From the human T2T-CHM13v2.0 reference genome, Homo sapiens: a stretch of DNA of 64,000 nucleotides. The notes under the pieces are model-generated. The model was given only the letters and a program-made list of their open reading frames with translations. It did no database searches and was not told the DNA's origin. Location of the stretch: the NCBI GenBank assembly GCA_009914755.4, contig CP068257.2:41824001-41888000 (forward strand), given 5' to 3'. Made by a program: the position numbers and the translations under genes. Position 1 is the stretch's first letter. The number at the start of each line of letters is the position of its first letter. Shown here in pieces: positions 21,322 to 64,000 of this stretch.

Positions 21322-21547
21322 ACCAACAGCAAACGAAAAGGAGAAACACCAACACCAAACGAAAAGAAGGAGAAACACCAACACCAAACGAAAAGAAGGA
21401 GAAACACCAACAGCAAACAAAAAGGAGAAACACCAACACCAAACGAAAAGAAGGAGAAACACCAACACCAAACGAAAAGAAGGAGAAACACCAACACCAA
21501 ACGAAAAGAAGGAGAAACACCAACACCAAACGAAAAGAAGGAGAAAC
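21322..21547. repeat. Minisatellite with about 8 tandem copies of a 29-bp unit (accaacaccaaacgaaaagaaggagaaac)
   Basis: Direct reading. The units are near-identical with a few substitutions (e.g. agcaaacaaaaaggagaaac). The run directly abuts the end of the MaLR LTR. Confidence 0.9.
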
Positions 21548-21632
21548 AGAGCCAGCACAAGGCGGGACCAACCCTGGGCGTGTTCAACAGAGCCCTGCAG
21601 CTCTATAATGTTTTAGTTATTAAAGTGAATGT

Positions 21633-60345: not shown

Positions 60346-61303
60346 AAGGCAACTCTCACCAATCATGGTGTCCATGAGAAATGAAGTGTATTCTCCCTTG
60401 CTCTCTGCCAGTGGCCTAGAAAACAAGCTGGATGGCAACCAGTAGGTAGATAACACAGACATGGCAGGGCCCTGGCATACAGGCACACCCATGCACAAAA
60501 AGGGAGCTGGAACTATCATTTCATTTATGGAATCTCAACTAACTGCATGTGTTCTAATCTATTATACAAGTTGTTTTTACAGCATTTGTTATAAGAAAAA
60601 TAGGACTTCTAAGTTTATAGCCAAAGGGCCCAGAACAGTTTAAGGAAGAGTTTTTTTTCCACCAACCAAGAGTAGCATGGTAATATGCAGAAATCTAACT
60701 TCCTAATATCAAGTTTAGATTTTAGACAGCAAGGGTCGTAATACAACTCTTCTGATTTTCTTTATTCAAAAATAAAAGAGGCACAAAAAATATAGAACTA
60801 AAATGCCCAATGTCATCCGAAATAGCAGGTTCACCAAAAGGTTATAAAAGTAAACTTGCATTTTGGGGGGATTAATTACAATTACTAGAGAGAGAATGAA
60901 TTGCTTTTCAAAGAAATGTATCTCAAGAAAATGCTGACTAATGGGGTAGATGGTTATTCAATTTCCCTGTTTTATAGGTGAACCTACAGGTCATGGTCTG
61001 CTGAGCAGCAAGAAGCTGCCCTAAGCAAGCCCTCTTCCAGCCAGCACAGACATGGACCACTTTTCCAGAAGGACAGGTTCTTTCATGGCCTCTCCTTTGG
61101 CAAGCTTAACCAACCACCTACAAGCACTCTCACTTCCAAGACAAAGTTATGTGGGATACATATCAATTCATGTCCATCTCTAGTCAATCACATTTTGCCA
61201 ACTCTAACACATGGTACATGGTGATGGTTTTGGAGTATCAAATGAGGGATCTGGGGAGAAGGGACACCGGCATTTTCACCAAAACCCTGGTGGCCGAGCA
61301 CAC

Positions 61304-61512
61304 CTACACATTATGCTCCAGAGTGCGGAGATCTTCCAGGAGCTCCTGGGCTGCGGTTTGCAGGCGGGGGTTGCGGCTCTTGGACATTGCCAGGATGCGT
61401 TGCAGGGGCAGGGAGCTCCGGAACTCAGAGGCCGACTTGGAGAAGACTTCAGGTTCCAGAACCACAGACTGGACAAGCCTCAGTACATGAAGGCACACCT
61501 CTGCATCTGGAT
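61304..61512 (-). CDS. Candidate terminal coding exon of an unidentified minus-strand gene. The coordinates cover the 3' part of a split codon, 68 codons and a TAG stop.
   Basis: On the minus strand the exon is preceded by cattacctcttttccctag, a polypyrimidine tract plus AG, at plus 61513-61531. The frame reads (D)PDAEVCLHVLRLVQSVVLEPEVFSKSASEFRSSLPLQRILAMSKSRNPRLQTAAQELLEDLRTLEHNV and the stop is TAG at 61304-61306. In-frame sequence further upstream is antisense Alu (…[12 protein letters not shown]…), which is intronic. The peptide has non-repetitive, helix-rich, HEAT/ARM-like composition. I could not match it to a protein from memory. Confidence 0.45.
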
Positions 61513-61547
61513 CTAGGGAAAAGAGGTAATGCTTCTGGTTAGAATAA

Positions 61548-61939
<392 letters not shown>

Positions 61940-62229
61940 TGAATAACACGTTTGACAGTTTAGAAAACTACAGGATAACCCAGAAACACAGTCACTGCTT
62001 GATATAAAAGCTTAGCTCATAAAAGCAGCATCAAAAAACTCAATAGTCTAATAACCATCATCTTCAAATATTACAGTCATACAATTTTAAAGTGTTAAAC
62101 TAGAAAGATGAGGGCTTTCTCTGTTTGCTAGTGAGGACTAAACTCTGATTTTTTTTATCTTGCCCAAATTCCTATCTAAGGGGTCTGGGGAGTCATGTCC
62201 TACAAATCACAAATTCTCATCAGATGGGT

Positions 62230-62831
62230 TTTATTTAACCCTATATATCATGACTTTCCAACCTGACTCTGGCATAACATTATGAGACAAGAAAGAAAAT
62301 AAAAATACTTTACCCCAAAATATGTTTCTTTGCCATATTTTGAAATGGCCCTGCAAAGCTGTTCTTTGTGGGGGAAAATCTGCATTTGTAAAGAATCTCT
62401 ACTAACATAGCTAGATCTTTTTCTTCGAGACCCTCCTAATCCTAAAGAGATTAACTAAGATCTGAATAGGAAACATCTGTCATCTATTGTCTCTAAGGCA
62501 GCCACCATAAGACTTCAAAAGAACTTGGATGTCCACAATCTTTACCTTAACCTGAACATTCCCTTTCTATCAATCCCAGGTCTTTATCAATCAGAAAATG
62601 TTTAAATTCACCTATAGCCTGGAAGCCCCACGCCCCCCAGCTTTGTCCCACTTTTCTGGACCAAACCAATGTATTTCTTAAATGTTTTTGATTGATGTCT
62701 CACACCTCTCTAAAATGTATAAAGCCAAGCCGCACCCAACTACCTTGGGCACATGTTCTCAGGACCTCACTCATATTTGGCTCAGAACAAATCTCTTCAA
62801 ATATTTTGCAGAGTTTGACTCTTTGTCGACA
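62230..62831 (+). mobile_element. LTR-like repeat copy 4, 5'-truncated
   Basis: ...agaaagaaaataaaaatactttaccccaaaatatgtttctttgccatattttgaaatggccctgcaaagctgttctttgtggggg...cctatagcctggaagccccacgccccccagctttgtcccacttttctggaccaaaccaatgtatttc...ctaaaatgtataaagccaagccgcaccc...ggctcagaacaaatctcttcaaatattttgcagagtttgactctttgtcgaca aligns to 57300-57924 of copy 3. Confidence 0.55.
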
Positions 62832-63824
62832 GTAGCATTCTGTCCACTTATAAGATTGTTTTAAAAAGTATTACTTCTTTTTCACTCCAATTGCAGCAAA
62901 TCCCTCAGGGACCACATACAGATACAGCACTTATCAGGGCCACTGAGTTTACACAATGTCACTGGGTATATAAAATTCACGTTGTTTATTTTCCATGGGA
63001 ATGGCCCCAGGACTTATAGAATCTGGTAGCCTTGCATACATTGTAGCAACCACTAAAAAATAGCTAGACAAACCCACTGGAAGCTTCAATCCATCACCAG
63101 AGTGGAGCCAACTTTCCTTACCATTCCTCTCTACTGGCAGCCTTTACGATGCCGTAAATTCACTCCTTGACTGGGTACTGCAACTGGAACCAGGCTCAAA
63201 ATCAGCACCTCTTTCTTAGCACATTTACTTAACAAATAAAAAAATTAAAAAAAAACCTTTTAAGATGTAGACTGAAAGAGCAGACTGAACAGTCTCTCAG
63301 TGGGAGCTGCCACAGCACTAAGCCCTAACAAGAAGCTTCTCACCTACAGAATCAGAAGACTGCTGTGGCCAGGGAAGATAAAAGGCAATCTGCTCTAGCC
63401 CTCAGGGAGGGTCCAGGAGCCATCTTAAGCCAGCCTGTTAGAGTCCTCCTACTTTGGGGGAAGGGAGGGGAACTTTCTCTAGTAGAGACCTGCCAAAGAT
63501 AAGGGGCAGCTAAGGCAGACACAGAGGCAAGGCCAAAAGCCATGGGTGAAGACGCTTTGGCAACTCAGCCCTCATCCTAAGCTCAAGGAAAGGTTAGAGG
63601 AATTTGAAGCCAGTGGGATGGAAGGTACATACACAACAACAAAACCCAGACCCACCTTAACTCCCCAACAATGAAAACCCAGCGGAAAAAGAGGAGTGGC
63701 CATTCCTGAATATAACACTATCTACCCACCTCATTCCCCTCTACAGAGAGGGTACGCATGGCCCAGAGGCCAAAGGTAGCCCATGACCCGTTTCTGTACA
63801 GCCTGCAAGCTAAGAATGGTTTTA

Positions 63825-63852
63825 CTTTTTTTTTCTTCTTCTTCTTCTTCTT

Positions 63853-63883
<31 letters not shown>

Positions 63884-63884
63884 T

Positions 63885-63920
<36 letters not shown>

Positions 63921-63932
63921 TCCTCCTCCTCC
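63825..63932. repeat. Composite T-run, (TTC)n, (CCT)n and poly-C microsatellite. It occupies the tail of the antisense Alu that follows.
   Basis: tttttttttcttcttcttcttcttctttcctcctcctcctcctcctcccccccctcctctcctcctcctcctcctcctccccccccctcctcctcctcc. Confidence 0.9.
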
Positions 63933-64000
63933 TTTTGGAGACAGGGTCTTGCTCTGTCTCCCAGGCTGGAGTACTCTGGTACAATCATGGCTCACTGCAG
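63933..64000 (-). mobile_element. Alu SINE (antisense), truncated by the window end
   Basis: ttttggagacagggtcttgctctgtctcccaggctggagtactctggtacaatcatggctcactgcag. Confidence 0.9.

What the first reader, a model, noticed from the sequence alone, without database searches (positions are those of the whole stretch)
61304..61531. Probable last coding exon of an unannotated or unidentified minus-strand gene
This is the only stretch in 64 kb that looks like genuine protein-coding sequence. A strong acceptor (cattacctcttttccctag|AT on the minus strand) is followed by 68 sense codons of non-repetitive, helical-looking peptide ending in TAG: ...DPDAEVCLHVLRLVQSVVLEPEVFSKSASEFRSSLPLQRILAMSKSRNPRLQTAAQELLEDLRTLEHNV*. 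The in-frame extension upstream is antisense Alu, so the ORF track entry 61304..61624 overestimates the exon. The rest of the gene would lie beyond the 3' edge of the window at higher coordinates. The first canonical minus-strand AATAAA downstream is at plus 60761-60766, implying a 3' UTR of about 540 nt.
Basis: partly seen in the sequence, partly recalled or inferred. Interest (0 to 1): 0.55.

Follow-up and report, generated by a model that had tools for sequence, protein, structure and literature searches.

The report
Last coding exon of human HSF2BP

Summary
On the minus strand, a 12-nt pyrimidine tract and an AG (61514-61513) are followed by 209 nt of coding sequence (61512-61304) ending in TAG.

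- **Identity.** The 69 encoded residues are 100% identical to the C-terminus (D266-V334) of human Heat shock factor 2-binding protein in PDB 7BDX and 7LDG (E about 1e-38).
- **Splice site.** Two spliced transcript contigs from other mammals stop aligning with the window at 61513. Upstream they carry the previous HSF2BP exon ("...PLLWWLLS|DPDAEV").
- **Conservation.** Eight genomic contigs from other mammals keep the AG, the reading frame and the TAG. Substitutions sit mainly at third codon positions, and dN/dS is 0.09-0.21.
- **3' end.** The AATAAA at 60766-60761 is conserved, but one transcript contig reads past it toward a second, partly conserved AATAAA at 59549-59544.

Two corrections apply. 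The gene is annotated and well studied, not unannotated. The upstream Alu is in sense orientation relative to the gene.

The exon encodes helices alpha10-alpha13 of the armadillo domain that binds BRCA2. Verdict: already known; interest very low.

The parts
61304..61512 (-). Coding part of the last exon of HSF2BP. It holds 2 nt of the split Asp266 codon (G|AT), 68 codons (P267-V334) and the TAG stop.
   Evidence: The peptide is 69/69 identical to PDB 7BDX_A and 7LDG_A, named Heat shock factor 2-binding protein. Coordinates and translation were checked. Against non-primate mammals dN/dS is 0.09-0.21, and the frame and stop are intact in all 10 loci.
61304..61306 (-). TAG stop codon
   Evidence: TAG sits at the aligned position in all 10 orthologous loci.
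61513..61514 (-). 3' splice-site AG of the last intron
   Evidence: Transcript contigs L001 and L009 stop aligning with the window at 61513 and carry the upstream HSF2BP exon instead. The AG is conserved in all 8 genomic orthologous contigs. The PDB protein has Ser before Asp266, whereas the genomic frame reads Leu.
61515..61526 (-). Polypyrimidine tract CCTCTTTTCCCT
   Evidence: Read directly. The aligned position is pyrimidine-rich in all genomic orthologues.
61538..61544 (-). Candidate branch point TTCTAAC, with the branch A about 26 nt upstream of the AG
   Evidence: Sequence. CTAAC or a near variant is conserved in L002, L003, L004, L005, L007 (CTAAG), L008 and L010. Its function is inferred from the consensus and was not tested.
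61551..61887 (-). Alu element with an A-rich tail, sense to the gene, inside the last intron. It supplies the spurious upstream part of the 106-aa ORF.
   Evidence: It is flanked by ATTTTATTCTA direct repeats at 61898-61888 and 61550-61540. It is absent from non-primate orthologous contigs, whose alignment jumps from about 61547 to about 61910, and present in the primate contigs L004 and L005.
61513..64000 (-). 3' part of the last intron of HSF2BP, truncated by the window edge
   Evidence: No tblastn match to upstream HSF2BP residues anywhere in the window. Patchy non-coding conservation with the orthologous genomic contigs L002, L006, L007 and L010.
60761..61303 (-). Proximal 3' UTR, up to and including the first poly(A) signal
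   Evidence: It aligns colinearly with the transcript contigs L001 and L009 and with the genomic orthologues at about 74-76% identity.
60761..60766 (-). First AATAAA poly(A) signal, 538 nt after the stop
   Evidence: It is conserved within the block TTTTGAATAAA in L001, L002 and L007, and as TAATAAAA in L010. Its use in human was not tested.
59544..59549 (-). Second AATAAA, 1755 nt after the stop, a possible distal poly(A) signal
   Evidence: It is conserved in L002 and L007 but not in L010. Transcript contig L001 runs past the first signal to about 59612.

Best explanation
This is the terminal coding exon and 3' UTR of the human gene HSF2BP (heat shock factor 2-binding protein, also called MEILB2), transcribed from the minus strand.

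The last intron is removed using the candidate branch point TTCTAAC (61544-61538), the pyrimidine tract (61526-61515) and the AG at 61514-61513. The G that ends the previous exon, which lies outside the window, is joined to AT at 61512-61511 to make Asp266. The exon then encodes Pro267-Val334 and stops at TAG (61306-61304).

These 69 residues form helices alpha10 to alpha13, the end of the four-repeat armadillo domain (aa 122-334). The positively charged groove of that domain binds a duplicated 23-residue motif of BRCA2. The exon contributes the contact residue Ser281 (helix alpha10) and the alpha10-alpha11 and alpha12-alpha13 loops.

The message most likely ends about 15-25 nt after the conserved AATAAA at 60766-60761, with a possible longer isoform ending after 59549-59544.

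Shown here: the identity, the exon boundary, the frame conservation and the conservation of the poly(A) signal. Inferred: branch-point use and poly(A) site use in human. Taken from the literature: the protein's function.
For: - **Identity.** 69/69 identity to the C-terminus of PDB chains 7BDX_A and 7LDG_A, 'Heat shock factor 2-binding protein', E 1.3e-38. With the whole 106-aa ORF as query, identity starts at DPDAEV and the protein has Ser where the genome frame has Leu.
- **Family.** 25 homologous fragments were found. One is named HSF2BP (Tupaia). All carry the precomputed Pfam domain PF28349, which is named HSF2BP_C.
- **Conservation boundary.** Protein conservation begins exactly at DPDAEV. 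Upstream sequence cannot be aligned except in four spliced fragments that share '...YISESPGFIPLLWWLLS'.
- **Splice junction.** Transcript contigs L001 and L009 align with the window only from 61513 downward. Genomic contigs continue to 61545-61549.
- **Selection.** Substitutions against non-primate loci fall mostly on third codon positions (for example 3/4/23 and 5/4/20 at positions 1/2/3), and dN/dS is 0.09-0.21. The frame and the TAG are intact in 10/10 loci. Identity is 82-89% in the coding part against 30-44% in the 100 nt after the stop.
- **Poly(A) signal.** AATAAA is conserved.
- **Numbering and function.** The ARM construct covers aa 122-334 and S281 in helix alpha10 hydrogen-bonds BRCA2 R2295/R2318 (PMC8322138). 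The 16th residue of the peptide is that Ser, and it is at least 90% conserved in alignment A1.
Against: - No human RNA data or genome mapping could be consulted. Use of the acceptor and of the poly(A) site in human is therefore inferred from orthologous transcripts and from the exact match to the human protein.
- The local Pfam copy returned no family for the peptide, apparently because it lacks PF28349. That is not evidence against the identification.
- Transcript contig L001 reads through the first AATAAA, so a single 540-nt 3' UTR is not established.
Confidence: 0.97

Rival explanations
1. The window holds a duplicated, non-functional genomic copy (a segmental-duplication fragment) of the HSF2BP last exon rather than the functional gene.
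For: Nothing observed points to this. The only reason to keep it is that the upstream exons are not in the window and the window could not be mapped to a reference genome, so a very recent duplicate cannot be formally excluded.
Against: - The peptide is 100% identical to the expressed human protein, with the stop and the splice signals intact.
- Intron and 3' flank are colinear with the orthologous genomic contigs of several mammals over about 4-5 kb.
- The primate contigs L004 and L005 share the same Alu and flanks.
Confidence: 0.02
2. It is a processed pseudogene of HSF2BP.
For: None beyond the protein match itself.
Against: A retrocopy would carry the upstream exon sequence ('...PLLWWLLS') directly joined to DPDAEV, as the cDNA contigs L001 and L009 do. 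The window instead has a pyrimidine tract, an AG, a candidate branch point and intronic sequence shared with the orthologous genomic contigs.
Confidence: 0.003
3. It is a chance open reading frame in GC-rich, Alu-rich non-coding DNA.
For: The window has 139 stop-free runs of at least 106 codons, so ORF length by itself means nothing. The upstream third of the listed ORF is Alu.
Against: E 1e-38 identity to a solved human protein. dN/dS of 0.09-0.21 with a conserved frame and stop in 10 loci. Spliced orthologous transcripts.
Confidence: 0.001

Closest known systems
Human HSF2BP / MEILB2 (334 aa; PDB 7BDX, 7LDG), terminal exon
   Same: Residues 266-334 are identical in all 69 positions. The C-terminal end and stop are the same. 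The BRCA2-contacting Ser281 is present.
   Different: Nothing detected. This appears to be the gene itself.
Mammalian HSF2BP orthologues (for example the Tupaia chinensis protein P0002, the transcript contigs L001 and L009, and genomic contigs L002-L010)
   Same: The exon boundary, the phase (G|AT), the length (209 nt; 212 nt in L009) and the TAG stop are the same. Protein identity is 75-99%.
   Different: The last 4-5 residues vary (HNV, HHV, RDA, RDV, QHHA). The Alu 35 nt upstream of the acceptor is found in primates only.
Armadillo-repeat proteins in general (such as beta-catenin and importin-alpha)
   Same: According to the structure paper, HSF2BP aa 122-334 forms four armadillo repeats whose concave groove binds a disordered partner peptide (PMC8322138).
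   Different: No generic ARM Pfam family reaches significance on this exon or on a 281-aa orthologue. The family has its own model, HSF2BP_C (PF28349).

Membership tests
HSF2BP / MEILB2 gene (human) | The encoded peptide matches the HSF2BP protein sequence | tested here: met
   69/69 identity to the C-terminus of 7BDX_A and 7LDG_A, E 1.3e-38.
HSF2BP / MEILB2 gene (human) | Carries the Pfam domain HSF2BP_C (PF28349) | tested here: met
   The precomputed PF28349 domain is present on all 25 homologues, including P0001, which is the same 106-aa ORF with one substitution. The domain name is given. The local Pfam copy returned nothing, apparently because it lacks this model.
HSF2BP / MEILB2 gene (human) | The exon is spliced to the upstream HSF2BP coding exon in mRNA | tested here: met
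   This was shown in orthologous transcript contigs L001 and L009, which read '...LLWWLLS|DPDAEV' and break from the window at 61513. For human it is implied by the protein sequence (Ser265-Asp266). Human RNA was not available.
HSF2BP / MEILB2 gene (human) | Purifying selection on the reading frame | tested here: met
   dN/dS is 0.09-0.21, differences are in excess at third positions, and there are no frameshifts or premature stops in 10 loci.
HSF2BP / MEILB2 gene (human) | The BRCA2-contacting residue Ser281 in helix alpha10 is present | tested here: met
   Peptide position 16 is Ser, which is residue 281 when the construct numbering 122-334 is applied. It is at least 90% conserved in alignment A1 (S53 of the ORF).
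HSF2BP / MEILB2 gene (human) | Genomic position at the annotated HSF2BP locus (chr21q22.3, minus strand; location from my own knowledge) | not testable with these tools
   No human reference genome or annotation is available among the tools.
HSF2BP / MEILB2 gene (human) | Expression in testis or germline, and use of the predicted poly(A) site | not testable with these tools
   No human RNA-seq or poly(A)-seq data were available. Only conservation of the AATAAA was tested.

The most novel reading that the evidence does not exclude
The most novel reading not excluded concerns the primate-specific Alu. It is in sense orientation and its insertion site, with the target-site duplication ATTTTATTCTA, overlaps the conserved branch-point heptamer 26 nt upstream of the last-exon acceptor. 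It places about 35 nt of A-rich tail directly against the branch point. This could modulate last-intron splicing or, together with the partly conserved distal AATAAA at 59549-59544, contribute to primate-specific or alternative HSF2BP 3'-end isoforms.
Probability: 0.07. Interest if true: 0.15.

Novelty: already known. Interest (0 to 1): 0.04.

Why it matters
It matters only as a calibration point. A reader without tools correctly recognised a 209-nt coding exon, its acceptor and its reading frame in 64 kb of GC-rich, Alu-rich non-coding DNA that holds 139 equally long chance ORFs.

Biologically, the exon is part of a well-studied gene. HSF2BP/MEILB2 binds BRCA2 and is needed for recombinase loading in meiosis. 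A missense variant elsewhere in the gene (S167L) has been linked to primary ovarian insufficiency (abstracts listed). The analysis here adds no new knowledge about that gene.

Tried and rejected
- **Local Pfam scans.** The 69-aa peptide, the 121-aa spliced fragment P0003 and a 281-aa reconstructed orthologue gave no significant family. The library copy seems to lack PF28349, so I relied on PDB identity and the precomputed Pfam tags instead.
- **Rfam.** A gathering-threshold scan of 58000-64000 found nothing.
- **Tupaia genomic locus.** The look-up for P0002 failed because the protein is not on record.
- **Other HSF2BP exons in the window.** tblastn with the upstream residues of P0003 and with 210 upstream residues from L009 found none.
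- **Other coding sequence in the window.** The ten longest ORFs (204-388 aa) have no Pfam hit. Their translations are rich in Pro, Gly, Ser and Arg, which is typical of GC-rich non-coding DNA.
- **Chance ORF and processed pseudogene.** Both readings were considered and rejected (see the rival explanations).

Full report
**Observation.** The sequence ...cattaCCTCTTTTCCCTag|ATCCAGATGCAGAG... opens a frame that runs to TAG. By script, the coding part is 61512-61304 (209 nt). It consists of 2 nt that complete a split codon, 68 sense codons (PDAEV...LEHNV) and TAG at 61306-61304. The mechanical ORF list gives 61304..61624 (106 aa), and its first third is Alu. The first minus-strand AATAAA is at 60766-60761, 538 nt past the stop, and the next is at 59549-59544.

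ORF length is not itself remarkable. The window is 43-62% GC and holds 139 stop-free runs of at least 106 codons. The evidence therefore has to come from homology and conservation.

**Identity.** The 69-residue peptide (Asp plus 68 residues) matches the C-terminal 69 residues of two PDB sequences named 'Heat shock factor 2-binding protein' (7BDX_A and 7LDG_A). Identity is 69/69 and E is 1.3e-38. When the whole 106-aa ORF is used as the query, identity begins at DPDAEV. The residue before Asp is Ser in the protein but Leu in the genomic frame, which is what an exon boundary within that codon predicts.

The structure paper states that the crystallised ARM construct is aa 122-334 of human HSF2BP (PMC8322138). 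The peptide is therefore D266-V334. As a check on this numbering, the paper's BRCA2-contacting S281 (helix alpha10) falls on the Ser at peptide position 16.

**Cross-species evidence.** A search of the large protein collection returned 25 fragments. One is named HSF2BP (Tupaia chinensis). All carry the precomputed Pfam domain PF28349, which is named HSF2BP_C. In the alignment (A1), conservation starts exactly at DPDAEV. Upstream, the fragments cannot be aligned, except for four (P0003, P0009, P0013, P0017) that share '...NVSINLKGLKYISESPGFIPLLWWLLS'. That pattern suggested spliced transcripts.

I fetched the DNA behind nine of the fragments. The tenth look-up, for Tupaia, failed.

- **Splice junction.** The contigs L001 and L009, both Logan assemblies of SRA runs, align with the window only from 61513 downward. 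The genomic contigs L002, L003, L006, L007, L008 and L010 continue to 61545-61549. The primate contigs L004 and L005 (95-98% identical) continue through the Alu.
- **Junction sequence.** The nucleotide alignment shows '...TGGTGGCT(T/C)(T/C)TGAGTG|ATCC...' in the two transcript contigs. All eight genomic contigs show a pyrimidine tract plus (C/T)AG|ATCC. The Asp codon is thus split G|AT and the acceptor AG is conserved.
- **Upstream exons.** Translations of L001 and L009 upstream of the junction give further HSF2BP coding sequence, a coiled-coil region and the earlier ARM repeats.
- **Selection.** Against human, the non-primate loci show differences of, for example, 3/4/23, 5/4/20 and 6/2/16 at codon positions 1/2/3. 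Nei-Gojobori dN/dS is 0.09-0.21. The frame and TAG are intact in 10/10 loci, with a single in-frame 3-nt insertion in L009. Identity is 82-89% in the coding part, against 30-44% in the first 100 nt of the 3' UTR.

**Rest of the gene.** tblastn with the residues encoded upstream of the junction finds nothing in the window. This holds for P0003 residues 1-48 and for 210 residues reconstructed from L009.

**Splice-signal anatomy and the Alu.**

- A heptamer TTCTAAC (61544-61538) lies 26 nt upstream of the AG and is conserved in most genomic orthologues. It is a plausible branch point, inferred from the consensus and not tested.
- Directly upstream lies an Alu (61887-61573, plus an A-rich tail to about 61551).
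- It is flanked by ATTTTATTCTA direct repeats at 61898-61888 and 61550-61540. The downstream copy overlaps the branch-point heptamer.
- Non-primate contigs lack the element. Their alignments jump from about 61547 to about 61910.

**3' end.** The AATAAA at 60766-60761 sits in a conserved block (TTTTGAATAAA) in L001, L002 and L007, and appears as TAATAAAA in L010.

However, L001 is demonstrably spliced at the acceptor, and it continues colinearly with the genome past this signal to about window 59612, where it runs into Illumina adapter sequence. A second AATAAA at 59549-59544 is conserved in L002 and L007 but not in L010. A longer 3' UTR isoform, or read-through in that species, is possible. 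Human usage cannot be decided with these tools.

**Function (from the literature, not tested here).** HSF2BP/MEILB2 is a BRCA2-binding protein required for meiotic homologous recombination. Its C-terminal armadillo domain (four repeats) forms a positively charged groove bounded by helices alpha1, alpha4, alpha7, alpha10 and alpha13. The groove binds a duplicated 23-residue BRCA2 motif. Helix alpha10, loop alpha10-alpha11 and loop alpha12-alpha13 take part in the interface (PMC8322138; related abstracts). The exon described here encodes the stretch from alpha10 to the C-terminus.

**Side-claim.** I made a limited check of that. The 21 ORFs of at least 170 aa have translations rich in Pro, Gly, Ser and Arg, and the ten longest have no Pfam match. 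This is consistent with the claim but is not an exhaustive test.

**Verdict.** Novelty: already known. Interest is very low. The finding's value is as a validation of the first-stage reading.

Noticed in passing
window 61540-61898 (-): A primate-specific Alu, sense to HSF2BP, sits 35 nt upstream of the last-exon acceptor. Its target-site duplication ATTTTATTCTA (61898-61888 and 61550-61540) overlaps the conserved branch-point-like TTCTAAC. The primate contigs L004 and L005 share the element, and non-primate contigs lack it.
   Followed up: partly
window 59021-59966 and 59544-59549 (-); L001:1370-1703: A block 1.3-2.3 kb downstream of the stop is conserved at 68-74% in L001, L002, L007 and L010. 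It contains a second AATAAA that is conserved in L002 and L007 but not in L010. The spliced transcript contig L001 reads through the first poly(A) signal into this block. This may reflect a long 3' UTR isoform.
   Followed up: partly
window 59967-60520: A 554-nt stretch is absent from the non-primate orthologous contigs. From memory, it resembles a MaLR (THE1/MST-type) LTR in reverse orientation (...TTTAATTGACTCACAGTTC...GGGGAAACCGCCCCCAT...). It was not checked against a repeat library.
   Followed up: no
L009:1-960: This transcript contig (SRR22936603) carries about 215 aa of upstream HSF2BP coding sequence. A frame-breaking insert sits between '...CTKLKV' and 'LMLMTLYNV...'. It could be an alternative exon or a retained intron piece, and would give a truncated isoform in that species.
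   Followed up: no
L001:1-200: The 5' end of this transcript contig departs from HSF2BP coding sequence just before '...VAAIACGREFLV'. This may be retained intron or an alternative upstream exon. The contig's 3' end is Illumina adapter (AGATCGGAAGAGC...), so the assembly was not adapter-trimmed.
   Followed up: no
window 21322-21548: A tandem repeat of a 29-nt unit (ACCAACACCAAACGAAAAGAAGGAGAAAC), 8 copies with 94% matches, which also scores as an 84-nt period.
   Followed up: no
window 1-48000: This part of the window is very GC-rich for human DNA (50-62% in 4-kb bins). Across the whole window there are 139 stop-free runs of at least 106 codons and 21 ORFs of at least 170 aa. None of the ten longest has a Pfam match.
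   Followed up: partly
window 63718-63999 (-) and 58404-58991 (+): A partial Alu at the window edge (63999-63933) is followed by a long purine-rich GGA/GAG/A tract that gives poly-Gly, poly-Glu and poly-Lys pseudo-ORFs. Two head-to-tail Alus lie on the plus strand at 58404-58690 and 58701-58991.
   Followed up: no
tool libraries: The local Pfam-A copy gives no hit for HSF2BP fragments, although the precomputed annotations list PF28349 (HSF2BP_C) and PF28368 for them. The scan library therefore appears to be older than those annotations.
   Followed up: partly
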